From NCBI GenBank assembly GCA_049299895.1, contig JBAQYF010000031.1:1627-65626 (forward strand): a DNA stretch of 64,000 nucleotides. The letters are read 5' to 3'. Below the pieces are notes generated by a model. It worked only from the letters and a program-made list of their open reading frames with translations, was not told the DNA's origin and ran no database searches. This DNA is from Candidatus Altiarchaeia archaeon (GTDB lineage: Archaea > Altiarchaeota > Altiarchaeia > IMC4 > QMZM01). Positions 668 through 53,303 of the stretch are shown here, one piece after another (within the stretch, counting starts at the first letter, position 1; every line of letters begins with the position of its first letter). The position numbers and the translations under genes are program-made.

Positions 668-1732
668 TTATTCCCCCAATATTTTTCCTGCTTTCTTGAA
701 TTCAGCGTAATACCTCATTAGAAAATCATGACGATTTTTTATTGAATAATCCTCTGCGCCAGCTTGTGTCAAATTCTTCTGGAACTCTAGAAGAGGGACA
801 AACTCCGGGTCAGGAAGAAATCCTTTCTTTATCTGTTCTTTGAGTTTAATATCTAAATGATTAAAGAGAAAATCATAAAAATTTGAGACTTCTTGTTCTG
901 GTTTATCTCTTTGTTTTAGTTCATCGACGACAAAAAATATGGATAACGCTAGACCTTTACTGTGAATTTTTTCTGCATAATCCCCCAGACTCGTTCCTAA
1001 GATAGCTAGAGTATTCTCAATGCCTTCTTTCTTATCAACTGGAATTGGGTTCTCAGCGTATTCATTAAAAAATTTTTTTAAGTCGTTGAATCTACATCTA
1101 GCAAAGTCTCTGTCTTTTGTATCATACCGTGAAAAATAGTTTATGCATATTTGAGCTAGTAACATTTCATCTCCAAATCTTCTTTTTGGAGATTTAATTA
1201 TTTTGAAAAACTTGGGAAATTCTTCCCCTTTTCTAAAAATAAAATCCCTCATATTCCCGGTCATAGAATTTAATTTCTCTCCTGAATTTAAGGGTTCTCC
1301 CAACTGTAATCTAAAGAATAATAAGTTTAACTCATCGTCATCTTCCAATTCATCAATTATGACGATGCTTAAAGGATACGGCTTAATCTTCGTTTGAAGC
1401 TCAGTTTTTAGTTCAGAGAAATATACCTCTTTTTCTGTTTGTTTAGACTCTTCTCGTAAGTCATGAATCGGCTTGAAACGATATTTGTTCATTAAAAATT
1501 CAGTGATCGCTTCTATTCTTTGTTGTCCGTCAACGACATCGTACCCGTCATCCGATTTATAAAAATAAAGTTTAGGGATATCAAAATCTCTCAGAATTGA
1601 GTCAATTAATGACTTCTTTTTTTCTAAACTCCATATTTTTGGATTTCTTTGGTATTCCTGAAAACTAAATTTCCCCTCTTTGAATAGATTAAAAAGTTTT
1701 TCTATGCTCCAAGATTCGATATGCTGCTTCAT
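668..1732 (-). CDS. DUF262 (ParB/Srx-like NTPase/nuclease fold, GmrSD N-terminal-type) domain protein with no DUF1524/HNH partner domain
   Basis: Hallmark DVVDGQQRIEAI motif near the N-terminus. 354 aa. Start overlaps the upstream SIR2 stop (ATGA). AT-rich. Confidence 0.7.
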   Translation of the reverse strand: MKQHIESWSIEKLFNLFKEGKFSFQEYQRNPKIWSLEKKKSLIDSILRDFDIPKLYFYKSDDGYDVVDGQQRIEAITEFLMNKYRFKPIHDLREESKQTEKEVYFSELKTELQTKIKPYPLSIVIIDELEDDDELNLLFFRLQLGEPLNSGEKLNSMTGNMRDFIFRKGEEFPKFFKIIKSPKRRFGDEMLLAQICINYFSRYDTKDRDFARCRFNDLKKFFNEYAENPIPVDKKEGIENTLAILGTSLGDYAEKIHSKGLALSIFFVVDELKQRDKPEQEVSNFYDFLFNHLDIKLKEQIKKGFLPDPEFVPLLEFQKNLTQAGAEDYSIKNRHDFLMRYYAEFKKAGKILGE

Positions 1733-2931
1733 TATGAATACCCCATAAATTTACTAAAATGAGGGTTATGCGAAGTGATTTCTATTTGTCGTGCTTCAAG
1801 TAATTCCCCTTTCATTTTTAACCAAGCTTCAAATATGTTTTGGGTGTCAGACCAGTAGTTACTTATATCAACATCTTTATTTAATTCATGTAATTTTCTC
1901 AAATCAGCCAAATCATATAGTGTTTCTAAGTTTCTCAAAAATGGATATGATTGCTTTATGTTTTGCCCTACATCATTAAAATCAATTAATTCTATATTAA
2001 ATCCCCTTTTTCCGTTTGCCAACCGTTGGGTTTGAAATAATAATTCTAACAATCCCCAATCATTCCTATTTAGCGAGCAACCAACTATTCTCAATACCTC
2101 GCAATCAATCATTATTTCTCTAGCCCTACCCCAGATCATATTATATGGATATACTTCTTTATTTTTCAATACCCCTGGTGGAATCCAATAAGTATCTGAT
2201 TCGGATAATTCAGTTATTCTATCAACCACAGATATGGGACTTGTTTTTTTCCAATTAAAAGAACCATGTAATTTTAGAAGAGGGGGTATAGCCTGGTCAA
2301 GATTCTGACTTAAAATTTTAATATTGTAATTAACACCCCCATAAACATTTCTGAATGCTAGATCAGTTAAGTCTTCATAATTTAAGGATATCACTCCATT
2401 CAAAGTTTCGTTCACCCCGGGGATTTTGTGATAATCTAACAGTGCTTGAGTTAAATGAGGGTGCAAACGGTTTTCTCCAGAAAAAAGGTTTTGTTTGAAA
2501 TAGTCCTGAAAATAGCTTTTAAGAGTTCTCGCAGCCTTTTTATATTCCGCATCATCAATAGTCTCAAACAAAGTAATGTAGTGTTCTATGTCAATACTTC
2601 GCCCATGCTTGTTCACTGACCTGCTTGAATGAATTTCAAAATATTTTTTAAGATCTTCAGCAGCTTTAGTATAATCATCTTGACCGATATCCTCAAGTAG
2701 TTTTACATAGTATTCTACATCGATTCCCGGTTCACATTCTTCACCACTTGGTTCATCATCGGTATTAACAATTAATTCATTTACGATATTTTTTAAAATA
2801 GGATCATCTCTACTTATTTTTTCAACAATTTTTTCTGTGATAGCGTCCGTGAGAAAACTTGAATCCCAAGAGGTGTAACCCCTTTCAGCCTCAGTTACTC
2901 CAGTACCAAATATATACGTAACCCTTACCAT
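1732..2931 (-). CDS. SIR2-like (SIR2_2 family) putative NADase, defence-associated
   Basis: N-terminal Rossmann motif IFGTGVT, then ISLNYEDLTDL (TTNYDxL-like), then LLKLHGSFNW (the KLHGS motif of defence sirtuins). 1-nt spacer from the upstream MTase. Confidence 0.6.
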   Translation of the reverse strand: MVRVTYIFGTGVTEAERGYTSWDSSFLTDAITEKIVEKISRDDPILKNIVNELIVNTDDEPSGEECEPGIDVEYYVKLLEDIGQDDYTKAAEDLKKYFEIHSSRSVNKHGRSIDIEHYITLFETIDDAEYKKAARTLKSYFQDYFKQNLFSGENRLHPHLTQALLDYHKIPGVNETLNGVISLNYEDLTDLAFRNVYGGVNYNIKILSQNLDQAIPPLLKLHGSFNWKKTSPISVVDRITELSESDTYWIPPGVLKNKEVYPYNMIWGRAREIMIDCEVLRIVGCSLNRNDWGLLELLFQTQRLANGKRGFNIELIDFNDVGQNIKQSYPFLRNLETLYDLADLRKLHELNKDVDISNYWSDTQNIFEAWLKMKGELLEARQIEITSHNPHFSKFMGYS

Positions 2932-2932
2932 C

Positions 2933-4165
2933 TTACTTGTGCCATATGATGATACTTTCTCTTGAAGGTTTTCTTTTATATTTCTTCATTTGTTGTGAAC
3001 TATTCCCTCTGTACCTAGCGATATAAATGTTCTGCGTTGTCAATCCTGCCTGTTCACCGATGTCCGCAAGTATTTCATCAACTGGAACATTAACGCCACA
3101 GAAACGGACATTACTTACCACGAGGGCGATCTTTCCTTTAGCCTTTAGACGTTTTTGCATCTGTGATAATGATAAGTACATGTCCTCGAAATAGCCCTCG
3201 ATCATTTCAGTCACTTTCGAATTGTTTGGGCCTCCTACCTCCACATCAGCTATTATATCACTAATTATTGATGGTTTCTTGTACCCTTTCGGCTCAAATT
3301 GCTTCTTCGCTTCAACGTGGGACCTAAGCGTGTTATACCTTATTTTCTTTAATTGGTCGTTGTTGTCAACGAAGTTAAAGATCATTTCTAGGCCGTAGAT
3401 ACGTGTATAATCGTGTCTGTTTGGGTACGGGGGCGAGGTTATTACAGCGTTGAACTTTCTGTCAGTTGGCAGCTTTCTTGAATCCCCGGTTTTCGCAATT
3501 ATTTTTGCGTTTTTGTACTTCAGAGTATCATAAAATGACTCGTAGTCCTGAATCATTTGAGCGACCTTTGCATTAAACTTAGGATACACCTCATCAGCAT
3601 TGACCTTCCGCTCAGAAATCCTTAAGAACCCTCCTGATTTGACGGTGTTACTAACGGACTCAAGGATGCTTAATAACCCCAGAGTATAAAAATCTCTGAC
3701 GTACGGGTCCCTTATTCTATCGATCTTCTCTTTTAAACTTAGTAGCTCCGTTTTTACATCTTCATTAAATGCCTTCTTGATCAGGTCTATATCAGGGAAT
3801 TCAAGGGAGGTAAACTTTAAGTTGCCATCATCCTCAAAATTCTTCAACTGTATTCGTAATTTTGTGGTGTCGTAGGTCCTGGTTTTTACATTTGATAGAA
3901 AAACAGAAAAGGGTAGGATATCGAAACCACTTGCATTGATTCCTGATTCCTTACAGGATAGCAGGGTTGTTCCTCCCCCACAGAAGCTGTCCAATACCCA
4001 AGAACCTCTCTTTAGGTCAAATTCATCTAACAGTTTTTCTACCAGTTCCTTTGAGTAACTGTGTTTAAATGCATGCCAGTTGTATAAAGGCGTCTCCTTA
4101 TCTCTGGCTGGTGAGATATATTGTCCAAAATCCTCTGTTTTTTCAATTAATTTTGAGTTGAGCAT
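2933..4165 (-). CDS. DNA amino-methyltransferase (N6-adenine or N4-cytosine; alpha-type motif order)
   Basis: Motif I DSFCGGGTT and motif IV ITSPPYPN. Paralogous to the MTase at 47697..48953 (shared YNW.., FC/DPFCGxGTT, TSPPY, C-terminal ..ES[IV][IV]I..K). Confidence 0.75.
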   Translation of the reverse strand: MLNSKLIEKTEDFGQYISPARDKETPLYNWHAFKHSYSKELVEKLLDEFDLKRGSWVLDSFCGGGTTLLSCKESGINASGFDILPFSVFLSNVKTRTYDTTKLRIQLKNFEDDGNLKFTSLEFPDIDLIKKAFNEDVKTELLSLKEKIDRIRDPYVRDFYTLGLLSILESVSNTVKSGGFLRISERKVNADEVYPKFNAKVAQMIQDYESFYDTLKYKNAKIIAKTGDSRKLPTDRKFNAVITSPPYPNRHDYTRIYGLEMIFNFVDNNDQLKKIRYNTLRSHVEAKKQFEPKGYKKPSIISDIIADVEVGGPNNSKVTEMIEGYFEDMYLSLSQMQKRLKAKGKIALVVSNVRFCGVNVPVDEILADIGEQAGLTTQNIYIARYRGNSSQQMKKYKRKPSRESIIIWHK

Positions 4166-21697: not shown

Positions 21698-21907
21698 ATG
21701 TCATTCGATGCAACGGTCAGGAAGATAGGCAATTCAGTCGGGGTGGTTTTCCCAAAAGAGTATGCTAAGAGCATGAACCTCAAGGTGAATGAAAAAGTGC
21801 GCTTGAACGTGGTCAGGGAAGCGGATTTCTCGGATATCTACGGTTTGCTTAAAGCAAAGAAAAGCGCGCAGAAGTTCAAAGACGAGGCGAGGGCAGGATG
21901 GAAGTAG
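21698..21907 (+). CDS. vapB: AbrB/SpoVT-fold antitoxin (VapB-like)
   Basis: VRKIGNSVGVVFPKE swapped-hairpin motif. 10-nt overlap with the downstream PIN gene. Confidence 0.7.
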   Translation: MSFDATVRKIGNSVGVVFPKEYAKSMNLKVNEKVRLNVVREADFSDIYGLLKAKKSAQKFKDEARAGWK

Positions 21908-22269
21908 GGCCTTATTTCTTTGATACGTACGCGCTGTACTCAATAGCCAATGGAACGCATTCTTACGCACCATACAAGCGTGTTCCCTGCGTAACTTCGG
22001 TCCTGAACCTGATGGAATTGCATTACTGCCTTCTGAAGGATCATGGAAAGGAAACTGCTAACAGATACTTTGACAGGTTCCGATCTTATGCCTGGGACAC
22101 TGACGACGACACGATAAAGCAGGCAATGGAATTCAAGCTCGAAAATAAAAAGAGGAACCTCTCTTATGTCGACTGCGTAGGTTATCTCATGGCCCAAAGA
22201 AACGGCCTGGTCTTTCTGACGGGGGATAAGGAATTCAAAGACATACAGGGAGTAGAATACGTGAAGTAG
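21898..22269 (+). CDS. vapC: PIN-domain toxin (VapC-like)
   Basis: N-terminal YFFDTYAL (first acidic residue), C-terminal DCVGYLMAQRNGLVFLTGDKEF. Confidence 0.7.
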   Translation: MEVGPYFFDTYALYSIANGTHSYAPYKRVPCVTSVLNLMELHYCLLKDHGKETANRYFDRFRSYAWDTDDDTIKQAMEFKLENKKRNLSYVDCVGYLMAQRNGLVFLTGDKEFKDIQGVEYVK

Positions 22270-22502: not shown

Positions 22503-24644
22503 TTGGTGAAGCAATTGAAAGTATTCCTGTACGACTTCGGCGGGGAGATAAAGTATCCCGATAACCTTGATTTTGGAGAGGACGTAGAGATAATCCGCCT
22601 AAAAGACATATCCACTGACGAGACGCAAAGGGCGGTCGCAAAGGCGCTCAAGACAGACAAAGTGATATTCGTCGGCCCGAGCCACAGGATATCCGAGAGG
22701 TTCTTTTCCGATCCCAACATAAAGTTCGTGAACGCCCGCGAGCAGGTGGCGTGGGTCGGGCACAATCCTGAGAAGATAAGGGACCTGATAGAGGGATCGA
22801 TTGCGAAATTGCGCAACTCGAAGAAGATTGAGAAGAAGCGTTTTCTGATAAAGCACAAGAGCGCACTTGTCATAGGCGCGGGGATTGCCGGCCTTGAGAC
22901 CGCGCGCCAGATAGCGAATTCCGGATACAAAGTATATCTTATTGAGAAGAAACCATTCGTGGGCGGGCTTGTCGCAAGGCTCGACAGGCTGTATCCCGCC
23001 GGGACTCCGAGCTCGCACGTTCTGTATCCGCTCATAAACGAGGTTGTCAGCAACCCCAATGTCGAGGTTCTCACAAACACCCAGATGTTGGACGTCGACG
23101 GCGTGGTGGGAGACTACAAGGTAAAACTGAAGACCAAGGGGAACGTCGTCGAGGGGAAATTGCCGAAGAAATGCGAGGAGGTGTGCCCGGTAGAAGTCGT
23201 GGACAAGATACCAAGAAAGGCTATCTACTACCAGCCTACGTATCCTGAATCGTATGGGATAGATTTCGACGCCTGCACGAAATGCGGGAACTGCGTAAAG
23301 GTATTGCGAGAGCTGTCCCTTGGGGAGACCGAGAAAACGATACACGTGGGCGCGATAGTCGTCGCGACAGGCCTCAAAGGATACGACGCAAAGAGGATAA
23401 GGGAATACGGCTACGGGAAGTACCCAAACGTGTACACGAAGCTCGAATTCGAAAGAAAATTCGCAAACGGCCTGATAAAACCCAAGAGCGTAGTAATCGT
23501 GAACTGCGCAGGTTCAAGGGACAAGAACCACCTGCCGTACTGCTCGCGCGTCTGCTGCATGCTCGGGCTGAAAGCAGCGAAGCTCATAAAGGACACCGCA
23601 CCGGATACCGACGTCTACGTGAATTACATAGACATGCGAAGCTACGGCGTATTCGAAGAATTTTATAACATCGTACGGGAAACCTATGGAGTAAAATTCG
23701 TCCAGGGCCGGCCTTCGGAGATACTCCAGGAAGCGGACGGAAAGCTCGTCGTAAGATGCGAAGACATACTCCTTGGAAAGAACCTGGAGATGAAAGCGGA
23801 TTGTGTCGTCCTCATGACAGGCTTTGTCCCGGACAAGGAGACGTTCGACCAACTGGGCATATACACAGCGGGCGCTTTCCCGATAGAATACGTCAACTCC
23901 ACATACTCAATCGACTCTAATCCAAGGGGAATCTTCATCGCAGGCTCTGCGGGCTATCCCAAGGACGTCGCGGAGATACTCATCAATGCAGCGAACGCGC
24001 CGGGAGGAGTGATAGAGATACTCTCCAAGGACTTCGTCGAGAACAAGACGCCGATAGCTAAGATCGACTCTAAGGTATGCAGCGAGAACAACTGCAGGAT
24101 ATGCGTGACCTCATGCCCGTACGGCGCTGTGCAGGTCAAAGAGGAGATCGTGACAGTGAATGAAGAGGTCTGCATGGGCTGCGGCATATGCACGGCGACA
24201 TGCGCCGCGGGGGCAAACCAGCTTGAAGGATTCGAGGAGAAAGGAATGCTCGCGCAGATAGGCGCAATGACGAAACACGAAGACATAATCGCGTTCATGT
24301 GCAAATGGAGCAGCTACAACGCCGCAGACAAGGCTGGGCAGGAGAGGATGACGTATCCTGAGAATGTGAAGATAATACGGGTGCCGTGCACCGGCCGCGT
24401 CTCTGGACAGATGATACTCAAGGCGTATGAATCGGGAGCAAAAGCCGTGCTCGTCGCGGGCTGTCCGCCGGACGCCTGCCACTATTTCACCGGGAACTTC
24501 AAAGCAAGAAAGAGGATAACTGCATTAAAAGCGATGATAAAGCAGTTCGGCATAAACCCGGACTCTCTTGCCATCGAATGGATAGGAAAGGATGAGTCCA
24601 AGAAATTCACTGACATCGTTACGAAACTGAATGAGGCTAATTAA
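22503..24644 (+). CDS. hdrA: Heterodisulfide reductase subunit A-like flavoprotein fused to a C-terminal MvhD domain
   Basis: FAD site ALVIGAGIAGLETA, several 4Fe-4S ferredoxin Cys motifs, C-terminal MvhD-like domain (DIIAFMCKWSSY...VPCTGRV...AGCPPDACHY). The N-terminal ~120 aa contain no Cys. Confidence 0.8.
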   Translation: MVKQLKVFLYDFGGEIKYPDNLDFGEDVEIIRLKDISTDETQRAVAKALKTDKVIFVGPSHRISERFFSDPNIKFVNAREQVAWVGHNPEKIRDLIEGSIAKLRNSKKIEKKRFLIKHKSALVIGAGIAGLETARQIANSGYKVYLIEKKPFVGGLVARLDRLYPAGTPSSHVLYPLINEVVSNPNVEVLTNTQMLDVDGVVGDYKVKLKTKGNVVEGKLPKKCEEVCPVEVVDKIPRKAIYYQPTYPESYGIDFDACTKCGNCVKVLRELSLGETEKTIHVGAIVVATGLKGYDAKRIREYGYGKYPNVYTKLEFERKFANGLIKPKSVVIVNCAGSRDKNHLPYCSRVCCMLGLKAAKLIKDTAPDTDVYVNYIDMRSYGVFEEFYNIVRETYGVKFVQGRPSEILQEADGKLVVRCEDILLGKNLEMKADCVVLMTGFVPDKETFDQLGIYTAGAFPIEYVNSTYSIDSNPRGIFIAGSAGYPKDVAEILINAANAPGGVIEILSKDFVENKTPIAKIDSKVCSENNCRICVTSCPYGAVQVKEEIVTVNEEVCMGCGICTATCAAGANQLEGFEEKGMLAQIGAMTKHEDIIAFMCKWSSYNAADKAGQERMTYPENVKIIRVPCTGRVSGQMILKAYESGAKAVLVAGCPPDACHYFTGNFKARKRITALKAMIKQFGINPDSLAIEWIGKDESKKFTDIVTKLNEAN

Positions 24645-24647
24645 AAA

Positions 24648-25637
24648 ATGGCAGAAGCAAAAGAAAAGCTCAAAATCGCGATATGCAGGGGAGCTACTTG
24701 CTCGGGATGCGACATAGCGATACTCGACATACACGAGCGGCTCCCGGCGGTCCTGGAGAAGGCAGAGATAGTATATGCCCCCACCCTCATCGACGCGAAG
24801 AACTCGGACGTCGAGAACATGAAAGACGGATCTATAGACGTCTGCTTCTATCACGGCTGCGTGCGCGACTCGGACAACGAGGAGCTCGCGCACCTCCTGC
24901 GAAAGAAGTCCAAGATAATGATAGCCTTCGGCGCATGCGCCTGTTTCGGCGGGATATTCGGCCTCGCGAACGTGACGGACCGGGAGGGCATAATAGAAGA
25001 GGTATACAAGAATACGGCCTCCACCGAGAACCCGGAAGGAACGACACCCCAGACGGAGTACTGGGACAAAAAAGACCACCGGCTCACTCTTCCCGAATTA
25101 TACGACAGCGTCTACGCGCTTAATGACAAAGTCGACGTAGACTACTATGTGCCATTGTGCCCGCCGATAGCAGAGCAGATAATGGCCGCGCTCACGGCGA
25201 TAACTACGTGGAACCTCCCGCCGAAGGGAACTATAATCGCCTCGGAAAAAACGCTGTGCAGCGAATGCACCCGGACGAGATCCGCTGTCAGGAAGATAGC
25301 GAAGATACACAGGCCTCATGAGATAAAGATAGACCAGGAGAAATGCATGCTCGACCAGGGACTGCTATGCATGGGACCTGCTACGAGAGCCGGATGTGGT
25401 ACCATCTGCGTGAAGGCTAACGTGCCGTGCAGGGGATGCAGCGGACCCACGAAGGAGGCATTCGACCAGGGGGCGAACATGCTTGGACTTATAGCCACAA
25501 TCTACGGGATACCCGAGGAATCCCTGACGGAAGAAGACGTAAAGAAGATAATGAAGGAGATAAAGGACCCGCTTGGTACGTTCTACAGATTCACTCTGCC
25601 TAAGTCGATCCTAAAGAGAAAGAGGATGGAAAAATGA
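24648..25637 (+). CDS. mvhG: [NiFe]-hydrogenase small subunit (MvhG/VhuG type)
   Basis: IAICRGATCSGCDIA, GCVRDSD, FGACACFGG cluster motifs. Confidence 0.8.
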   Translation: MAEAKEKLKIAICRGATCSGCDIAILDIHERLPAVLEKAEIVYAPTLIDAKNSDVENMKDGSIDVCFYHGCVRDSDNEELAHLLRKKSKIMIAFGACACFGGIFGLANVTDREGIIEEVYKNTASTENPEGTTPQTEYWDKKDHRLTLPELYDSVYALNDKVDVDYYVPLCPPIAEQIMAALTAITTWNLPPKGTIIASEKTLCSECTRTRSAVRKIAKIHRPHEIKIDQEKCMLDQGLLCMGPATRAGCGTICVKANVPCRGCSGPTKEAFDQGANMLGLIATIYGIPEESLTEEDVKKIMKEIKDPLGTFYRFTLPKSILKRKRMEK

Positions 25638-26113
25638 TGGAGAAGAGAATATTTATGTATAGGGAAGACAATAGTCGATACATATCAATTTTAGATATAT
25701 GCATAGACTTTTATAAGACCAAAGTTACGTACAGATCATCCAAAACTGTGTTGTTATTATCCATCTCAGTTTCGTTTATAATTGCGCTTTTATCACTTTC
25801 GTGTAATAACATTATCGCTAATTTTCCCTTTATGCAGATAGTAATAATGATCACTATGATCATTTTAGGTGGGATTGCCTTTTCAGAAGCGTCTGATTTC
25901 GGAAGAGATTTTAAAACTTTGAGAAAACTACATAGAGCCAAGATTGAACCTGACCAATGGCGGCTAATTGTGATGTTTGATGAAGTAGGAATTAAGGAGG
26001 CAAATACCGAGAGGATATTAACCGTTGAAAATAATGATGGCTCAGGATTAATCGAGGGGGCAATTTTATTACTGCTTTGCTCTCTTTTAAAGAGTAGTCG
26101 ACATACAAAATGA
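25634..26113 (+). CDS. AT-rich hypothetical membrane protein inserted between the hydrogenase small and large subunit genes
   Basis: ATG overlaps the mvhG stop (ATGA). About 30% GC against about 50% flanks. Three predicted TM segments. No homology recognised. Confidence 0.4.
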   Translation: MMEKRIFMYREDNSRYISILDICIDFYKTKVTYRSSKTVLLLSISVSFIIALLSLSCNNIIANFPFMQIVIMITMIILGGIAFSEASDFGRDFKTLRKLHRAKIEPDQWRLIVMFDEVGIKEANTERILTVENNDGSGLIEGAILLLLCSLLKSSRHTK

Positions 26114-26126
26114 ACGACAAAAACGC

Positions 26127-26182
26127 ATCACCATCAACCCAGTCACAAGACTGGAGGGCCACCCAAAGATAGACCATCAACC
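26127..26182 (+). pseudogene. Decayed duplicate of the mvhA 5' coding end (translates ITINPVTRLEGHPKID..)
   Basis: About 75% nt identity to mvhA codons 9-26 (IIINPVTRLEGHAKIDIF). Stops after about 20 codons. Confidence 0.4.
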
Positions 26183-26253
26183 CTTTTGAGTTGGCGAAAC
26201 GGGCCACATACGCTAACGCTAGTGGCCCAGACGAAATAAACCAATAAAAGAAA

Positions 26254-27732
26254 ATGACTCACGAGAAGAAAAAAGAGATAATCATAAACCCTGTTACAAG
26301 GCTCGAAGGCCACGCGAAGATAGACATCTTCCTGAACGATTCGGGGAACGTGGAAGACGCCTATTTCCAGGTCATCGAGCTGCGGGGCTTTGAGAAGTTC
26401 TGCCAGGGCAGGCCTGCGGAAGAGATGCCCAGGATCGCTCCAAGGATATGCGGCGTCTGCCCTAATCCGCATCACATGGCTTCAGGGAAGGCTGTTGACA
26501 TGGTGTTCGGAGTCGAAGCAACGGAGACGGCAAAGAAACTGAGGGAACTGTCGCTCTGCGCGCACTACATGCACAGCCACATAGCGCACTTCTACGCGCT
26601 GGGTGGGCCGGATTTCATAATAGGCCCGGCGGCTGATCCTGCTGAGAGGAATATTGTTGGAGTCATAAACAAAGTGGGTGGAGAGATAGCAGGACAAGTA
26701 ATAACCGCCCGCGCATACGCACAAAGAATACAGCAGATAATAAGCGGAAGGGCGACTCACCCCATAAACAATCTTCCAGGAGGGCTTGCAAAACCCATAA
26801 CTTCAGAAGAGCAGAAGGAAATAGAGAAGATGAGTAAGACCCTTCTGGGCTTTGGCAAATTCACGCTGCAGATATTCGAAGACATCGTCCTCAAGAACAA
26901 GGATTACGTGGACATAATAACAGGAGACATATACCAACACAGGACGTATTATATGGGGACGGTTGACGCGAAGAACAAGGTCACATTCTACGACGGAGAC
27001 ATACGCGTCGTATCTCCCGAAGGAAAGGAGTATGAAAAATTCAGGGGTGAAAAATACCTGGACCACATAGCGGAACACGTGGAGCCCTGGACGTATCTCA
27101 AGTTCCCGTACCTGAAAAAGAACGGCTGGAAGGGCATAGTCGACGGAGCGGACTCTGGAGTATACAGGGTCGCCCCACTCGCCCGGCTGAACGCCGCGGA
27201 CGGGATGGCAACGCCTCTTGCAAACGAGGCATATGATAAGATGTACGAGACCCTCGGGGGAAAGCCCGTGCACGCGACACTCGCCATGCACTGGGCGAGG
27301 GTTATAGAGATAATGTATGCTGCGGAAAGGATAAAAGAACTCATAGAGGACCCGCAGATAACGGATACGGACGTCAGGAACATCCCCACAGACGTCGTCG
27401 GAGAAGGCATCGGACAAGTGGAAGCACCGCGAGGCACTTTATTCCATCATTACAAAACGGACGACGAAGGGATACTCACGAAGATAAACATCGTGGTCGC
27501 GACAGGGAACAACAACGCAGCGATATGCATGTCCGTGAAGCGCGCGGCAGAGAAGCTCATAAAGAACTGGAAAGTAGACGACGGCATACTCAACATGATA
27601 GAGATGGCATTCCGGGCATACGACCCGTGCTTCGCATGCGCGACGCACACGCTGCCGGGGCACATGCCACTTGAGATAAGGATATACGATGCGGAGAAGA
27701 AATTGTACAAGAGGATAACCAGATATGAATAA
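26254..27732 (+). CDS. mvhA: [NiFe]-hydrogenase large subunit (MvhA type)
   Basis: N-terminal RICGVCPNPH and C-terminal DPCFACATH Ni-Fe ligand motifs. Confidence 0.85.
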   Translation: MTHEKKKEIIINPVTRLEGHAKIDIFLNDSGNVEDAYFQVIELRGFEKFCQGRPAEEMPRIAPRICGVCPNPHHMASGKAVDMVFGVEATETAKKLRELSLCAHYMHSHIAHFYALGGPDFIIGPAADPAERNIVGVINKVGGEIAGQVITARAYAQRIQQIISGRATHPINNLPGGLAKPITSEEQKEIEKMSKTLLGFGKFTLQIFEDIVLKNKDYVDIITGDIYQHRTYYMGTVDAKNKVTFYDGDIRVVSPEGKEYEKFRGEKYLDHIAEHVEPWTYLKFPYLKKNGWKGIVDGADSGVYRVAPLARLNAADGMATPLANEAYDKMYETLGGKPVHATLAMHWARVIEIMYAAERIKELIEDPQITDTDVRNIPTDVVGEGIGQVEAPRGTLFHHYKTDDEGILTKINIVVATGNNNAAICMSVKRAAEKLIKNWKVDDGILNMIEMAFRAYDPCFACATHTLPGHMPLEIRIYDAEKKLYKRITRYE

Positions 27733-28183
27733 CAAGACCCTCGTGATGGGCGTAGGGAACCCCATACTCAAAGATGACGGAGTTGGGATCCACGCAGTAA
27801 GGGAACTACAGAAGACAGTTACTGGAGTGGATTTCCTTGAAGAATCGTTGTCGGGGCTGGAACTCATCGAGCAGTTCCGCGGATACGATAGGGTCGTGAT
27901 AATAGACGCAGTGAAGACACAGGGAGGCGTACCTGGAGAGATGTATCATCTGACTCCCGAGGACATGCCGACCCTGCACGGGCTCTCGCCGCACGACGCG
28001 GACTTTCGCAGTGCTATCGAATACGGAAAAAAATTCATGGGAGTAATGCCCTTAATAGAGATATACGGAATAGAAGTAGAGAATGTAACAGAATATGGAG
28101 AAACTCTTACAGCGGAAGTGGAGAGGTCTCTTCCGGGGCTGGTAGAGAAGATTAAGGTCAAACTCGAAGATGGATCTACGTGA
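27725..28183 (+). CDS. Hydrogenase maturation endopeptidase (HycI/FrhD-like)
   Basis: LVMGVGNPILKDDGVGIHAV, VVIIDAV. Immediately follows the large subunit gene. Confidence 0.75.
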   Translation: MNNKTLVMGVGNPILKDDGVGIHAVRELQKTVTGVDFLEESLSGLELIEQFRGYDRVVIIDAVKTQGGVPGEMYHLTPEDMPTLHGLSPHDADFRSAIEYGKKFMGVMPLIEIYGIEVENVTEYGETLTAEVERSLPGLVEKIKVKLEDGST

Positions 28184-28610
28184 GGAACTAAAGCACGAAA
28201 TAGATGCAAAGACATTAAGCTATTGCTTTTCATGCGGCATGTGCACCGGAGGGTGCCCCTCGGCCCGGATGAATGAGAAATACAATCCCAGGAGGATACT
28301 CCACAGGGCGGTGATAGAAGGAAAGATAGAAGACGACGTCTGGCTCTGCACGAACTGTTACACATGCCAGGAACGCTGCCCGACAAAAACGAAAGTAGCG
28401 GACATCATAAGCCTCCTGCGCCGGCTCTATGTTAAAGAAAAAGGGATACCTGAATCAATAAGACCGCTCGTAACGAATTTACAGGCCTGCGGATTCACGG
28501 CGACCATAGGCGAACTCGAGAACAAGAGAAGGGAGAGAATGGGCCTTCCGCCCGTTAAGACGAATGACGAGATAAAGAGGATCATCGAGAAGACAGGAGG
28601 AGGGAAATGA
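28170..28610 (+). CDS. hdrC: Heterodisulfide reductase subunit C-like
   Basis: Two 4Fe-4S motifs, CFSCGMCTGGCP and CTNCYTCQERCP. Confidence 0.75.
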   Translation: MDLREELKHEIDAKTLSYCFSCGMCTGGCPSARMNEKYNPRRILHRAVIEGKIEDDVWLCTNCYTCQERCPTKTKVADIISLLRRLYVKEKGIPESIRPLVTNLQACGFTATIGELENKRRERMGLPPVKTNDEIKRIIEKTGGGK

Positions 28611-29485
28611 AAAACAAATATGCTTATTTCATCGGCTGCACGATACCATTCCGCGCCTCCAACTACGACCTTGCCACAAGGAAGGTTACGGAGTCGCTGG
28701 GAATAGAGCTTGTCGACCTCCCGGATGCGGGATGCTGCGGCCTGTATTTCGAGCTCATAAACGAGATGACGTATCTTTCCATGGCCGCCCGCGTGCTGTC
28801 GATGGCGGAAGAGAAGAAACTCGACCTCCTCGTACTATGCAACGGATGCAACGGCTCATTGTACCGGGCCAACAAGAAGCTGAAGGAGAACCCGGAACTA
28901 AAGGACAAAGTGAACGAAGTCCTGACTGAAGTAGGCCGCGAGTACAGGGGAACTATAGAAGTAAAGCACCTCATCCGTGTGCTGTACGAAGACATCGGGA
29001 TAGAGAAAATAAAAGAAAAGATCGCTAACCCCCTCACGAACGTGAAAGCCGCGGCGCACTACGGCTGCCACCTTTTGAAGCCTTCGGAAGAGATCATGTT
29101 CGACGATCCGAAAAATCCAGTAAGTTTGGACAGGCTAATCGAAGTAACGGGAGCAAAGTCGGTCGACTACTACGACAAGCTGCAGTGCTGCGGAGGATAC
29201 GTGCTGGCAGCGGACGCGAAGACCGCCTATAAGATGACTGGCGAGAAGCTTTCGCACGTCAAAGCGGCCGGTGCCGACATAATGATCACAGGCTGCCCGT
29301 TCTGCAACGTCATGTATGATGCTAACCAGAGGGCTGCGGAGACTGAGACAGGTCAGCAGTACAAGATACCGTGCCTGCATTATCCGCAGCTTCTGGCGCT
29401 TGCGATGGGGGTCGATCCGAAGGAATTGGGCTTCGAACAGAACAGGGTGAGGCCTGATATGAAACTGTTTATCAAATCTCCTTAA
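28607..29485 (+). CDS. hdrB: Heterodisulfide reductase subunit B-like (two CCG domains)
   Basis: GCTIPF, DAGCCGLY, CCGG, GCPFC motifs. Confidence 0.8.
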   Translation: MKNKYAYFIGCTIPFRASNYDLATRKVTESLGIELVDLPDAGCCGLYFELINEMTYLSMAARVLSMAEEKKLDLLVLCNGCNGSLYRANKKLKENPELKDKVNEVLTEVGREYRGTIEVKHLIRVLYEDIGIEKIKEKIANPLTNVKAAAHYGCHLLKPSEEIMFDDPKNPVSLDRLIEVTGAKSVDYYDKLQCCGGYVLAADAKTAYKMTGEKLSHVKAAGADIMITGCPFCNVMYDANQRAAETETGQQYKIPCLHYPQLLALAMGVDPKELGFEQNRVRPDMKLFIKSP

Positions 29486-29498
29486 GCTATAAAAAATA

Positions 29499-30770
29499 TC
29501 AGTTCGGCGCGTGGCCGGCCGGATTAGCCCATGAGTTTATCAGGTCTATCACTTCCCCTATACTCATTTCTCCAGTTACCCACTCGTTGATCCCTGATAA
29601 TACCTCTGACAATTCTACTATTTCACAAGGGGGCGAGTTCCCGGGCATAAGGCATGAGGCAGTTGTCGTGGATGTCGTACTGCTTGTCGAAGTCGTAGTG
29701 ACCATCGTGGTTGTGGATGTCGTACTGCTCGTAGACGTTGTCGTGAGGATCGTAGTAGTGGTTGTAGAAGTGGTTGTCGTAGTAGTGGTTGTGGAAGTAG
29801 TCGTCGTAGTGACGCCTTCTAGTACCAGAACGCCCCCGTCGTTGTCAGTTACTTGTGTTCCCTGCCCGGCATATAGTTTTCCATTATAGGATTCAAGCGC
29901 ATATACAGTCTTGTTGCCGGCGTAGCTTGTCTGCCAGCCAACCCCATTGTAGACTATTATTCCTCCGACACCAAGCCCTGCATACAGCTTTCCGCCAAAG
30001 CTCTTCAATCCATAGACAGTGTGGCTGCTTGGATATGTAGTATACCAGTTTGTCCCGTCGAGGACGAAGATGCCTTGATTCGTTCCCACGTAGAGCTTTC
30101 CGTCATATTCTTCCATGGATTCGACGAACTCAGTACCATTGTGAACTATTTCCCAGGAGGTGCCGTTGAATGCGATCACGTTGTTGTGGGTGAGCCAAAC
30201 AGTTTCTATCCCGGCATAAAGTTTACCATTATACGCCTTTAGTGCATAGACCCTTCCCTCTGGAGAGTAAGCTATAGCCCAATTTGTTCCGTTAAAATAG
30301 ATAATTGCAGGAATTTCAGAGTAACCGGTCAGGCTACCTGAGTACAGCTTCCCATCATACACTTCAAGGGATGCAGACAGAGAGCAACCGGGTACATCAT
30401 AAGTCCAGACTGCGCTTAAATTTTGGCTCCATCCGCTGCCGTTATATGCGAGTATATCGCTGTAAGGATCCCCATAAATTTCAGATGCATAAAGCCTGCC
30501 GTCGTATTCTTTGATAGCCATGATAAGAGAACCTGCAAGGGTCGCATACGACGTCCGCCAGGAGCTGCCGTTAAAGGCGTAGATATTGCTGGTCCGTTTA
30601 CCGTCTTCCTGATACCCGCCGGCATACAGACTCCCCTGATACGCCCCAAGAGAGTAGATGCTGACGTTGCCTTTGTCATATATACGAGTCCATGTGTCCG
30701 CATACCCGCAAAAAGGAAGCACCATCAATAATAAAAGGCCCCCCCCCAGTAGAAGATTTTTAGTTTCCAT
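29499..30770 (-). CDS. Secreted beta-propeller-like repeat protein with a long Thr/Ser-rich linker
   Basis: Signal peptide, about 7 YxGKLYAG..NGTxW repeats, more than 60 aa of Thr/Ser low complexity encoded by degenerate nucleotide repeats at about 29640-29810. Confidence 0.5.
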   Translation of the reverse strand: METKNLLLGGGLLLLMVLPFCGYADTWTRIYDKGNVSIYSLGAYQGSLYAGGYQEDGKRTSNIYAFNGSSWRTSYATLAGSLIMAIKEYDGRLYASEIYGDPYSDILAYNGSGWSQNLSAVWTYDVPGCSLSASLEVYDGKLYSGSLTGYSEIPAIIYFNGTNWAIAYSPEGRVYALKAYNGKLYAGIETVWLTHNNVIAFNGTSWEIVHNGTEFVESMEEYDGKLYVGTNQGIFVLDGTNWYTTYPSSHTVYGLKSFGGKLYAGLGVGGIIVYNGVGWQTSYAGNKTVYALESYNGKLYAGQGTQVTDNDGGVLVLEGVTTTTTSTTTTTTTTSTTTTTILTTTSTSSTTSTTTMVTTTSTSSTTSTTTASCLMPGNSPPCEIVELSEVLSGINEWVTGEMSIGEVIDLINSWANPAGHAPN

Positions 30771-52892: not shown

Positions 52893-53303
52893 ATGAAAGA
52901 TACTAAGGATGTTGCAGTAGAATTTGTCTTGGATTATGAAAAGAAACAGGGACGGATCGCTCGAGACGTGCAATCAGACCAGAAATGCAAAGGTTACGAC
53001 GTTCTTAGCCATTCAAATGAGGGAAAGATTGCCCGGACAATAGAGGTGAAAGGAACACGTTCGGGGAATATTCCTGATTTCTATGCTACGGAAATTGAAA
53101 ATGGAAAGCTAGTTGCTTCGCATCTTTATGTGGTTTCCGTCAAAGAAAATTCTGATGAAATAGATAGATTTTTTATTATTGAAAGATCTGAAATAAGACC
53201 TGAAGATTTCAGTAAGGAAAAACCCCGTTACCGAATAAAGTTCAGAAAATTAGACTCAGGAAATATTGACAAATATGAGATGAAGCGATCAAATTTTATA
53301 TGA
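52893..53303 (+). CDS. Small DUF3883-like (restriction-endonuclease-fold) domain protein
   Basis: KGYDVLSHSNEGKIARTIEVKGT resembles the DUF3883 core (GYD...IEVK). AT-rich gene immediately after the previous stop. Confidence 0.45.
   Translation: MKDTKDVAVEFVLDYEKKQGRIARDVQSDQKCKGYDVLSHSNEGKIARTIEVKGTRSGNIPDFYATEIENGKLVASHLYVVSVKENSDEIDRFFIIERSEIRPEDFSKEKPRYRIKFRKLDSGNIDKYEMKRSNFI

What the first reader, a model, noticed from the sequence alone, without database searches (positions are those of the whole stretch)
25634..26254. AT-rich foreign ORF wedged between hydrogenase small and large subunit genes, flanked by a decayed duplicate of the mvhA 5' end
mvhG and mvhA are normally adjacent. Here a 159-codon, roughly 30% GC ORF encoding a 3-TM protein starts on the mvhG stop (ATGA). 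Downstream, at 26127-26182, is a roughly 75% identical copy of mvhA codons 9-26 (ITINPVTRLEGHPKID versus IIINPVTRLEGHAKIDIF) that terminates quickly. The true mvhA begins at 26254. This looks like the scar of an insertion with target duplication, or of a partial duplication, inside a conserved operon. The inserted gene could be a selfish element, or it could be a domesticated membrane anchor for the hydrogenase.
Basis: seen in the sequence. Interest (0 to 1): 0.65.

Follow-up and report, generated by a model that had tools for sequence, protein, structure and literature searches.

The report
Foreign membrane-protein cassette splitting hydrogenase genes
A small AT-rich piece of foreign DNA carrying one unknown membrane-protein gene sits between the two hydrogenase subunit genes of an uncultured archaeon, and comparison with relatives shows it is a rare movable cassette that lodges at the ends of housekeeping genes and leaves duplicated gene ends behind.

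Summary
A 159-codon ORF (25634-26113) with GC 0.34, against 0.49 for the window, starts on the mvhG stop. It is followed by a 56-66 nt copy of the mvhA 5' end, a 77-nt hairpin-bearing spacer, and the intact mvhA (26254).

Five close Altiarchaeia relatives (MvhA 77-90% identical) have mvhG and mvhA overlapping or abutting, with no insert. The same structure occurs in three independent assemblies, so it is not an assembly artefact.

ORF159 belongs to a rare, unannotated family of small membrane proteins, about 11 clusters among 5.8 billion proteins. Family members lie in DNA 15-20 GC points below their surroundings:
- at the mvhG|mvhA junction (four alleles, 30-94% identical);
- directly after polB (three loci);
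- beside IleRS (one locus).

Two loci show clear direct repeats of the target gene end: 25 nt in L034 and about 100 nt in L033.

ORF159 is 94% identical between two lineages whose mvhG genes are 77% identical (dS 0.115 against 1.14). It therefore moved horizontally.

The mvhA fragment differs from the real gene mostly at synonymous sites, so it comes from another functional allele rather than from decay in place.

Function and mobilising enzyme are unknown. A hydrogenase-specific membrane anchor is unlikely.

The parts
22503..24644 (+). hdrA fused to mvhD (FlpD domain), the first gene of the operon that carries the insert
   Evidence: Pfam FlpD 1e-41, Pyr_redox_2 and Fer4 domains
24648..25637 (+). 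mvhG, [NiFe] hydrogenase small subunit. Its TGA stop overlaps the ORF159 ATG.
   Evidence: Pfam Oxidored_q6 2.5e-24; sequence
25634..26113 (+). ORF159: an AT-rich gene for a small membrane protein of a rare unannotated family (conserved N-terminal 'FxY.xD...Y...L..CI.FYK', two TM helices, 'AKIEPxxWxLxV' beta-hairpin, C-terminal hydrophobic helix). The family alignment favours the first ATG over the ATG at 25655 used by gene callers.
26111..26176 (+). Pseudo-mvhA 5' end (start codon to codon 22 of a different, 'ITINP'-type allele). Its ATG overlaps the ORF159 stop. A -1 frameshift in the A-run 26120-26124 is inferred.
26130..26183 (+). Two 11-nt direct repeats ACCATCAACCC (26130-26140, 26173-26183). 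The second marks the end of mvhA homology. One repeat and the sequence between them are missing in the otherwise 99.95% identical contig L028.
26177..26253 (+). 77-nt spacer of unknown origin with a GC-rich hairpin (GGGCCAC-N14-GTGGCCC, 26201-26228). It is 100% identical in L031 although the flanking genes there have dS 0.28-0.41.
26254..27732 (+). Intact mvhA ([NiFe] hydrogenase large subunit), 90% identical in protein to its closest insert-free relative
27725..29485 (+). hycI maturation protease, hdrC and hdrB: the rest of the operon downstream of the insert
   Evidence: Pfam HycI, Fer4_8, CCG

Best explanation
ORF159 is the cargo of a small AT-rich cassette (about 0.5-0.6 kb) that entered a roughly 52%-GC Altiarchaeia genome at the translationally coupled mvhG/mvhA junction.

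The cassette belongs to a rare family of islets. Each carries a homologous small membrane-protein gene and lodges at the end of a conserved housekeeping gene: the mvhA 5' end, the polB 3' end, or beside IleRS. Insertion duplicates the target gene end, as integrative elements with att-type sites do.

The cassette encodes no recombinase and I found no promoter signal (inferred). It is probably transcribed by read-through from hdrA-mvhG and translated by coupling through the ATGA overlap. It spreads between lineages either through a recombinase acting in trans or through homologous recombination in the conserved flanks.

In the window lineage the site has been hit or rearranged at least twice:
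- the ORF159 cassette sits between mvhG and an older, foreign-allele mvhA 5' end that is now a pseudo-fragment;
- a second segment (the 77-nt hairpin spacer plus a fresh mvhA 5' end) restores an intact mvhA.

Shown: insertion polymorphism, foreign composition, family membership, recurrent gene-end locations, direct repeats of the target in L034 and L033, horizontal movement, and the foreign-allele origin of the fragment.

Inferred: the integration mechanism, the mode of expression, and the protein's role. I think the protein is most likely an accessory membrane function of a mobile element, such as exclusion, immunity or defence, rather than a hydrogenase subunit.
For: 1. Empty sites. mvhG and mvhA overlap or abut in L001 (MvhA 89%), L029 (90%), P0005's contig (86%), L030 (83%) and L002 (77%).

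2. Composition. ORF159 has GC 0.342 against 0.489+-0.051. P0127 has 0.358 against 0.52, P0126 0.31 against 0.52, P0131 0.33 against 0.45, P0128 0.33 against 0.48, and P0125 about 0.25 against 0.40.

3. Family. A profile search of 1.84e9 representative proteins gave 7 hits. A word-index search added 3 more. Cross-BLAST E-values range from 1e-8 to 1e-35, with shared motifs.

4. Recurrent gene-end sites.
- mvhG|mvhA: window/L027/L028, L026, L031, L034/L035.
- Directly after polB: L033, L036/L037, L038.
- Beside IleRS: L040.

5. Target repeats.
- L034: 25 nt, 24/25 identical, spanning the mvhG end and mvhA codons 1-6.
- L033: the polB 3' end occurs three times (88 nt at 88%, plus a 33-nt continuation, plus a 29-nt remnant), bounding two tandem AT-rich genes.

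6. Horizontal movement. Between the window and L026, ORF159 is 94.0% identical (dS 0.115) while the adjacent mvhG is 76.9% identical (dS 1.14). Fisher p = 5e-18.

7. Cassette swap. L031 has near-identical flanks (92.9% and 94.6%) and an identical spacer, but an ORF only 34% identical in protein.

8. Fragment from another allele. 8 synonymous against 2 non-synonymous differences, P = 6e-4 under neutral decay.

9. Local mosaicism. The window is clearly closest to L029 in hycI (85 against 68), hdrC (88 against 80) and the hdrA 5' half (87 against 82). It is equidistant from L029, L001 and L030 (78-82) in mvhG and mvhA.

10. The other low-GC genes in the window are defence-type genes: GmrSD_N, SIR2_2, a DNA methylase and NOV_C.
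Against: - No recombinase, transposase, terminal inverted repeat or known att motif was found in or next to any cassette. I did not screen the whole window for integrases.
- No homologue was found in IMG/VR viral contigs, GenBank phages or PLSDB plasmids, so a mobile-element source is not demonstrated.
- In this window the short junction repeats around ORF159 itself (J1/J2/J3, sharing only AAAATGA plus purine runs) are not significant (p 0.3-0.5).
- The one significant repeat flanks the spacer, not the ORF.
- Repeat lengths differ between loci (25, about 66, about 100 nt), which does not fit a fixed-stagger transposase.
- dN/dS of 0.46 between the two ORF159 alleles gives only marginal evidence of purifying selection (11 synonymous against 19 non-synonymous changes).
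- Four alleles at one junction, with ATGA coupling on both sides in L034, could also fit an old resident gene.
Confidence: 0.7

Rival explanations
1. ORFx is a genuine, old accessory subunit of the Mvh-Hdr complex in this clade, for example a membrane tether. It would be inherited at the mvhG|mvhA junction, evolving fast, repeatedly lost, and exchanged between lineages by homologous recombination.
For: - Four alleles (ORF159, its 88% variant, P0123, P0127) sit at exactly the same junction in the same orientation.
- In L034 ATGA overlaps occur on both sides, which would keep operon translation coupled.
- The reading frame is preserved across 6% nucleotide divergence, including an in-frame 6-nt indel, with dN/dS 0.46.
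- The predicted fold is confident (pLDDT 79) and conserved motifs are shared.
Against: - The five nearest relatives lack it and keep intact, coupled mvhG-mvhA.
- Homologues sit after polB and beside IleRS with no hydrogenase nearby.
- GC3 remains 0.35 against 0.57, which is not expected of a long-term resident.
- dS is ten times lower than that of the neighbouring gene.
- The L034 copy is flanked by a near-perfect 25-nt repeat typical of a recent insertion.
- In the window lineage the coupling to mvhA is already broken.
Confidence: 0.12
2. This is a local tandem duplication of the mvhA 5' end that decayed in place. ORF159 would be an unrelated or spurious reading frame in the decayed DNA.
For: Two copies of the mvhA 5' end lie 151 nt apart in direct orientation. 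The 11-nt microhomology at the break, and the L028 deletion between its two copies, show that slippage-type events occur here.
Against: - Differences between the copies are 8 synonymous to 2 non-synonymous, whereas the true copy has barely changed since its split from L029 (97.9%). P = 6e-4 under neutral decay.
- The fragment carries ITINP, as in the L001, L030 and L034 alleles, not the resident IIINP.
- ORF159 has real homologues elsewhere.
- The ORF is not derived from mvh sequence: blastn finds no similarity.
Confidence: 0.04
3. ORFx is the att-proximal 'moron'-like gene (superinfection exclusion or lysogenic conversion) of an AT-rich integrating virus or plasmid of Altiarchaeia. The cassettes seen would be what is left after the rest of the element was deleted. 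This is a more specific version of the best explanation.
For: - ORFx is always the gene next to the target gene end, while the cargo beyond it varies: ParE/DUF2683 in L036, a 302-aa gene plus NERD in L038, a 197-aa gene in L033, nothing at the mvh site.
- A GC-rich hairpin follows the ORF in both the window and L026 (z -3.1 and -3.6).
- Alleles diverge strongly between hosts that are 93-95% identical.
- P0124 lies in a contig that is AT-rich throughout (GC 0.32) with only unknown genes.
Against: - No hit in IMG/VR, GenBank phages, PLSDB or PHROGs.
- No integrase or capsid gene is seen in any locus.
- The L034 cassette is exactly one gene bounded by repeats, which calls for repeated, very precise reduction.
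Confidence: 0.25
4. The structure is an assembly or binning chimera: AT-rich reads from another organism were mis-joined into the hydrogenase operon.
For: The source is a MAG, and the GC drop is abrupt.
Against: - The same junctions occur in three independent assemblies from different sources (NCBI MAG, Logan SRR28062479, ENA ERZ27247824).
- A natural deletion variant and two diverged alleles occur in further samples.
Confidence: 0.01

Closest known systems
Integrative genetic elements or genomic islets that target gene ends through tyrosine-recombinase att sites (for example SSV-type or pTN3-type archaeal integrated elements, and bacterial islands in tRNA or protein-gene 3' ends). Basis: my own knowledge.
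   Same: - Foreign base composition.
- Insertion at the very end of a conserved gene.
- A direct repeat of the gene end on both sides, with the displaced copy left as a pseudo-fragment of a different allele (L033 polB; window mvhA).
- Tandem accretion at one site.
- Presence/absence polymorphism among close relatives.
   Different: - The cassettes are tiny (0.5-2 kb) and encode no integrase.
- The targets are protein-gene ends inside or beside operons rather than tRNA genes.
- At the mvh site the target is a 5' end and an inter-cistronic junction.
- Repeat length varies (25 to about 100 nt).
- No att consensus or circular form is known.
Prophage 'morons' / lysogenic-conversion genes (Hendrix and colleagues). 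Basis: my own knowledge.
   Same: A single extra gene of deviant GC, followed by a hairpin, wedged between conserved genes. Such genes often encode small membrane proteins and vary between otherwise similar genomes.
   Different: The host context here is a chromosomal energy-metabolism operon, not a prophage. No phage homologue was found. No own promoter is evident, and the ORF overlaps the upstream stop codon.
Free-standing homing endonuclease genes with 'intronless homing' between conserved genes (T4 seg/mob genes). Basis: my own knowledge.
   Same: - Optional single gene located exactly between two conserved genes.
- The insert is more similar across lineages than its flanks.
- Flanking sequence appears to be co-converted, giving a mosaic mvhG/mvhA and a foreign-allele mvhA fragment.
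   Different: The protein is a predicted membrane protein with no GIY-YIG, HNH, LAGLIDADG or other nuclease signature. Homing does not create target duplications.
Homology-facilitated illegitimate recombination during uptake of foreign DNA (de Vries and Wackernagel). Basis: my own knowledge.
   Same: - One side is anchored in conserved sequence (mvhG 3' end).
- The other join is illegitimate, with microhomology (the 11-nt ACCATCAACCC at the break).
- The outcome is an insertion plus a partial duplicate of the target from the donor allele.
   Different: It is a one-off repair outcome. It does not explain why the same gene family recurs at gene ends in several loci with clean direct repeats (L034, L033).
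MvhAGD-HdrABC electron-bifurcating complex of methanogens and Archaeoglobus-type Mvh:Hdl operons. Basis: my own knowledge.
   Same: The host operon has the expected genes: an hdrA-mvhD fusion, mvhG, mvhA, hycI, hdrC and hdrB.
   Different: To my knowledge the known complexes are soluble and have no membrane subunit encoded between mvhG and mvhA. ORF159 matches no hydrogenase-associated family.

Membership tests
Integrative element with att-type target duplication | Presence/absence polymorphism at a precise site among close relatives | tested here: met
   Five relatives have empty sites. Four alleles are filled at the same junction.
Integrative element with att-type target duplication | Direct repeats of the target sequence flanking the inserted DNA | tested here: inconclusive
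   Clear in L034 (25 nt, 24/25) and L033 (88 nt at 88%, plus more). In the window the significant repeat (56 nt, 77%) flanks only the spacer. The repeats around ORF159 itself are not significant.
Integrative element with att-type target duplication | A cognate integrase or recombinase, encoded on the element or in trans | not tested
   No cassette encodes one (single ORF; Pfam on the neighbours). I did not screen the whole window or genome for integrases.
Integrative element with att-type target duplication | Foreign composition relative to the host | tested here: met
   GC z = -2.9 and GC3 z = -2.1 in the window. The same 15-20 point deficit occurs in five other loci.
Transposon / IS / MITE | Transposase gene or terminal inverted repeats, multiple copies, and a short fixed-length target-site duplication | tested here: not met
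   There are no inverted terminal repeats and no second copy in the 64-kb window. No transposase domain was found. Repeat lengths vary from 25 to about 100 nt.
Free-standing homing endonuclease gene | A nuclease domain (LAGLIDADG, GIY-YIG, HNH, PD-(D/E)xK and similar) | tested here: not met
   No Pfam, NCBIfam or PHROG nuclease hit. The AF2 model is a transmembrane helical hairpin plus a small beta-sheet.
Mvh/Hdr hydrogenase subunit (membrane anchor) | Conserved co-occurrence with mvhAG across the clade | tested here: not met
   It is absent from the five closest relatives. Homologues lie next to polB and IleRS.
Mvh/Hdr hydrogenase subunit (membrane anchor) | Physical association with the complex, or a requirement for activity | not testable with these tools
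   This needs proteomics or genetics in an uncultured lineage.
Known protein families (Pfam, NCBIfam, PHROGs, PADLOC, PDB) | A significant profile or fold match | tested here: not met

The most novel reading that the evidence does not exclude
The ORFx cassettes could be a previously unrecognised kind of minimal archaeal mobile unit. It would be a promoter-less, single-gene 'junction parasite' that a trans-acting, still unidentified recombinase inserts precisely at the start or end of highly expressed housekeeping genes (mvhA, polB, IleRS).

Insertion would duplicate the coding end, including the start codon and ATGA overlap. The host gene would stay intact and the cargo would inherit the operon's transcription and translational coupling.

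The fully conserved 77-nt hairpin spacer would then be part of the element: its recombination site or an expression signal for the displaced downstream gene.
Probability: 0.2. Interest if true: 0.75.

Novelty: new variant of a known kind. Interest (0 to 1): 0.52.

Why it matters
Altiarchaeia are uncultured subsurface archaea, and little has been described about their mobile elements.

This locus gives a concrete case, replicated across samples, of foreign DNA inserted into the core energy-conserving Mvh-Hdr operon without destroying it.

It defines a new small membrane-protein family that travels on AT-rich islets.

It shows that gene ends (mvhA 5', polB 3') act as recurrent integration sites with allele swapping between populations.

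It also has a practical use for annotation. The duplicated mvhA start and the ORF's overlapping start codon are easily mis-called: public gene calls begin ORF159 seven codons late.

If the cassette proves to be mobilised by a dedicated recombinase, it would add a new minimal element type. If the protein proves to bind the hydrogenase, it would be a new way of tethering a normally soluble complex.

Tried and rejected
1. Campbell-type integration of a circle carrying mvhG 3' and mvhA 5' homology. This predicts that the 77-nt spacer is a decayed mvhG 3' end. Local alignment against four mvhG 3' ends was not better than shuffles (p 0.04-0.7). Rejected.

2. The first 16 nt of ORF159 (ATGATGGAGAAGAGAA) as a remnant of the original mvhA start. 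It looks attractive by eye (10/12 matches to L001) and is true for P0127 in L034. In the window the J1/J2/J3 similarities are not significant (p 0.3-0.5). Family members elsewhere also start M-x-K/E. Left open.

3. The spacer as an archaeal promoter for a leaderless mvhA. A/T-rich boxes lie only about 7 and 17 nt upstream of the ATG, not about 26. Not supported. The sigma-70/terminator scan was uninformative.

4. A known RNA in the region. Rfam at E<=1 gave nothing.

5. More copies.
- JGI metagenome scans by protein pattern and by the hairpin found only L031.
- The viral-contig scan found nothing.
- Phage and plasmid tblastn found nothing.
- The insert has no other copy in the window or in the 25 genome loci.

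7. The right flank of the L026 allele. The contig ends 22 nt after the stop, in a hairpin. Whether that lineage has a pseudo-mvhA fragment could not be determined.

8. A sharp recombination breakpoint in sliding-window identity. Only a regional loss of the window-L029 sister relationship across mvhG and mvhA was seen. No precise breakpoint was found.


Full report
**1. What is in the window**

The region is a typical Mvh-Hdr operon on the + strand:
- an hdrA-mvhD fusion (22503-24644);
- mvhG (24648-25637);
- mvhA (26254-27732);
- hycI, hdrC and hdrB (27725-29485).

Between mvhG and mvhA lie 616 nt that contain four features.
- (a) ORF159 (25634-26113). Its ATG overlaps the mvhG TGA.
- (b) An mvhA-like fragment (26111-26176). 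Its ATG overlaps the ORF159 TGA.
- (c) Two 11-nt repeats ACCATCAACCC (26130, 26173). The second marks the point where mvhA homology stops.
- (d) A 77-nt spacer (26177-26253) with a GC-rich hairpin at 26201-26228.

The fragment matches the true mvhA 5' end at 77% over 56 nt, blastn E 2.7e-5.

ORF159 has GC 0.342 and GC3 0.35. The 61 window ORFs average 0.489+-0.051 and 0.574+-0.104, giving z -2.9 and -2.1.

The frame is very unlikely to be open by chance (P about 2e-6).

**2. It is not an artefact**

Contig L027 (Logan) is 100% identical to the window over 6.6 kb.

L028 (ENA) is 99.95% identical but lacks the stretch between the two 11-nt repeats. This is a natural deletion that removes most of the pseudo-fragment and shows the fragment is dispensable.

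The window's MvhA is annotated in NCBI as coming from a Candidatus Altiarchaeia MAG.

**3. Relatives show an insertion**

Five close relatives have mvhG and mvhA overlapping (ATGA or 14 nt) or separated by one base, with nothing between them:

| Relative | MvhA identity to window |
|---|---|
| L029 | 90% |
| L001 (Altiarchaeales nzgw1) | 89% |
| P0005's contig | 86% |
| L030 | 83% |
| L002 (ex4484_96) | 77% |

**4. The ORF is a real gene of a rare family**

Direct search found only the window's own protein and an 88% variant.

A profile search of 1.84 billion representatives found P0123-P0128 (E 3e-10 to 9e-4). A second profile search added P0129-P0131.

Reciprocal tblastn links all members. 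They share three features:
- an N-terminal motif (L/I)xFEYKxDxxxYxxxLDxCIxYYK;
- two hydrophobic helices;
- a motif LYLAKIEPExWxLxV.

AlphaFold2 with this alignment gives pLDDT 79. The model has a short N-terminal strand, a long transmembrane helical hairpin, a beta-hairpin that pairs with the N-terminal strand, and, in ORF159 and P0123, a C-terminal hydrophobic helix.

The alignment shows that the conserved N-terminal strand starts at residue 5-6. The real start is therefore the ATG on the mvhG stop, not the ATG at 25655 used by public gene calls.

**5. Where the family lives**

| Site | Loci | Allele |
|---|---|---|
| mvhG\|mvhA junction | window, L027, L028 | ORF159 |
| mvhG\|mvhA junction | L026 | 88% variant |
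| mvhG\|mvhA junction | L031 | P0123 (34% aa identity) |
| mvhG\|mvhA junction | L034, L035 | P0127 (about 30%) |
| Directly downstream of polB | L033 | P0126 |
| Directly downstream of polB | L036, L037 | P0131 |
| Directly downstream of polB | L038 | P0128 |
| Between the L21e operon and the IleRS 3' end | L040 | P0125 |
| A contig AT-rich throughout, with unknown genes | L032 | P0124 |

In every mixed-composition locus the ORF is 15-20 GC points below its neighbours.

The polB-linked copies head small AT-rich islets with variable further cargo: ParE/DUF2683, a NERD-domain gene, or unknown genes.

**6. Target repeats**

In L034 the cassette is flanked by GA(A/G)GAAAAATGACAGAAAAGAAAAA, 24 of 25 identical. 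This is the last codons of mvhG plus the first six codons of mvhA.

P0127 consequently begins MTEKKK, exactly like MvhA. ATGA overlaps exist on both sides of the cassette.

In L033 the polB 3' end occurs three times:
- in the functional gene;
- as a 29-nt remnant directly after ORFx;
- as an 88-nt copy at 88% identity, plus a 33-nt continuation, after the next AT-rich gene.

The distal copy still encodes an almost intact PolB C-terminus. This is the pattern left by successive integrations at a gene-end attachment site.

The window resembles it. It has an ORF cassette, then a displaced mvhA 5' end, then a short second segment (the spacer), then the functional mvhA.

**7. Horizontal movement and cassette swapping**

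Comparison of the window with L026:

| Gene | Nucleotide identity | dS |
|---|---|---|
| mvhG | 76.9% | 1.14 |
| ORF159 | 94.0% | 0.115 |

Fisher's test on the nucleotide differences gives p = 5e-18. The L026 mvhG is actually closest to L001, which lacks the insert. The ORF therefore moved between lineages long after they split.

L031 comes from a population whose flanks differ from the window at dS 0.28-0.41 (92.9% and 94.6% nucleotide identity). It carries a different ORF allele (49% nucleotide, 34% amino-acid identity) and a differently decayed pseudo-mvhA (MDNEKKKQITINP, then a frameshift).

Yet a tract running from the end of the fragment, through the spacer, into the first codons of mvhA is 100% identical. 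For 88 neutral sites P is below 1e-11. This tract is either recently shared element DNA or is under strong constraint.

**8. Origin of the pseudo-mvhA fragment**

Over the 48 in-frame nucleotides the fragment is 77-83% identical to every sampled allele. It has 7-10 synonymous differences and only 1-2 amino-acid changes from each.

It encodes ITINP, as in L001, L030 and L034. The resident gene encodes IIINP, as in L029.

The resident copy is 97.9% identical to L029 over the same stretch. If the fragment had decayed in place after a local duplication, about three quarters of the changes should alter the protein. Observing at most 2 of 10 has P = 6e-4.

The fragment therefore evolved as part of a working mvhA in another lineage. 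It arrived with a cassette, or it is the displaced original end of a recombinant locus.

Local mosaicism agrees with this. The window is clearly sister to L029 in hycI (85 against 68%), hdrC (88 against 80%) and the hdrA 5' half (87 against 82%). It is equidistant from L029, L001 and L030 (78-82%) in mvhG and mvhA.

**9. How it probably works**

Shown: an AT-rich single-gene cassette has been inserted at the coupled mvhG/mvhA junction. It is optional, it moves between lineages, and its relatives sit at other gene ends with target repeats.

Inferred:
- The cassette encodes no recombinase and I found no promoter signal.
- It is expressed from the operon transcript by translational coupling through the ATGA overlap. 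A GAGGA lies about 10 nt upstream of the ATG.
- It is moved either by a recombinase acting in trans on gene-end att-like sequences or by homologous recombination through the conserved mvhG 3' and mvhA 5' flanks. The microhomology at 26173 would be the scar of one illegitimate join.

The protein is a small membrane protein. Several observations point to a mobile-element accessory function, such as exclusion, immunity, defence or toxin-like activity, rather than a hydrogenase anchor:
- the gene travels with TA and nuclease genes;
- it diverges strongly between near-identical hosts;
- it is only weakly constrained (dN/dS 0.46);
- in this genome low GC otherwise marks defence genes: GmrSD_N, SIR2_2, a methylase and NOV_C.

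This last step is speculation.

How mvhA is expressed behind the hairpin, without an obvious ribosome-binding site, is unexplained.

**10. Comparison with known systems**

In anatomy the closest parallel is integration of genetic elements at gene ends with att duplication and tandem accretion. The deviant-GC single gene followed by a hairpin recalls phage 'morons'. The optional gene between conserved genes, with flank co-conversion, recalls free-standing homing endonuclease genes.

Membership in any of these is not established:
- no integrase is known for the cassette;
- no phage homologue was found;
- no nuclease domain is present.

Transposon or MITE membership is contradicted: no inverted repeats, a single copy, and variable repeat length.

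**11. Verdict**

The finding is a real and well-supported insertion.
- the fragment is of foreign-allele origin rather than decayed in place;
- the architecture is nested or tandem rather than a simple target-site duplication around the ORF;
- a hydrogenase anchor role is unlikely.

It is a new variant of a known kind (a gene-end integrative islet) carrying a new protein family. It is moderately interesting. It would become more so if a dedicated mobilisation mechanism or a hydrogenase interaction were demonstrated.

Noticed in passing
window 668-4165 (- strand): An AT-rich island (GC 0.33-0.40) holds three co-directional genes with GmrSD_N, SIR2_2 and N6/N4 DNA methylase domains. It looks like a horizontally acquired defence island.
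   Followed up: partly
window 52893-53303 (+): A 136-aa low-GC ORF (GC 0.365) has a NOV_C domain. It is another compositionally foreign gene.
   Followed up: no
window 29499-30770 (-): A 423-aa protein has repeated 'YNG/YDGKLYAG' units and a long Thr/Ser-rich linker (TTTTSTTTTTTTT...). It has no Pfam hit and sits directly downstream of hdrB on the opposite strand. It is probably a secreted or surface repeat protein.
   Followed up: no
window 21898-22269 (+): A PIN-domain (toxin-like) gene lies just upstream of the hdrA-mvhD gene, in a lower-GC stretch (GC 0.36-0.46 between 22000 and 22600).
   Followed up: no
L028 4032-4042 against window 26130-26183: A natural deletion between the two 11-nt repeats ACCATCAACCC removes most of the pseudo-mvhA fragment in an otherwise 99.95% identical contig. 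The second repeat sits exactly where mvhA homology ends. This suggests microhomology-mediated joining or templated filler at the original rearrangement.
   Followed up: partly
window 26160-26272 against L031 835-945: A tract of about 110 nt (end of the fragment, the spacer, and the first mvhA codons) is 100% identical between two populations whose flanking coding DNA has dS 0.28-0.41. No explanation is established; it may be shared element DNA, gene conversion or constraint.
   Followed up: partly
L033 3861-5297: The polB 3' end is present three times, bounding two tandem AT-rich genes (ORFx P0126 and a 197-aa gene with GC 0.26). The distal copy still encodes a near-intact PolB C-terminus with a 6-nt deletion.
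   Followed up: partly
window 22503-29485 against L029, L001 and L030: Relatedness is mosaic along the operon. hycI is 85% identical to L029 but 68% to L001 and L030. mvhG and mvhA are 78-82% identical to all three. This indicates recombination between lineages within the operon.
   Followed up: partly
L026 1495-1520: In the 88% ORF159 variant the sequence directly after the stop is a perfect GC hairpin (CCGCCC-TAAA-GGGCGG) instead of the pseudo-mvhA fragment. The contig ends there, so that lineage's right junction is unknown.
   Followed up: no
L034 4001-4270: P0127 has a 90-residue lysine/glutamate-rich N-terminal extension that starts in the duplicated mvhA start codon (MTEKKK). It appears to be former cassette 5' sequence read in frame, so the protein is expressed as a fusion to the copied MvhA N-terminus.
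   Followed up: no
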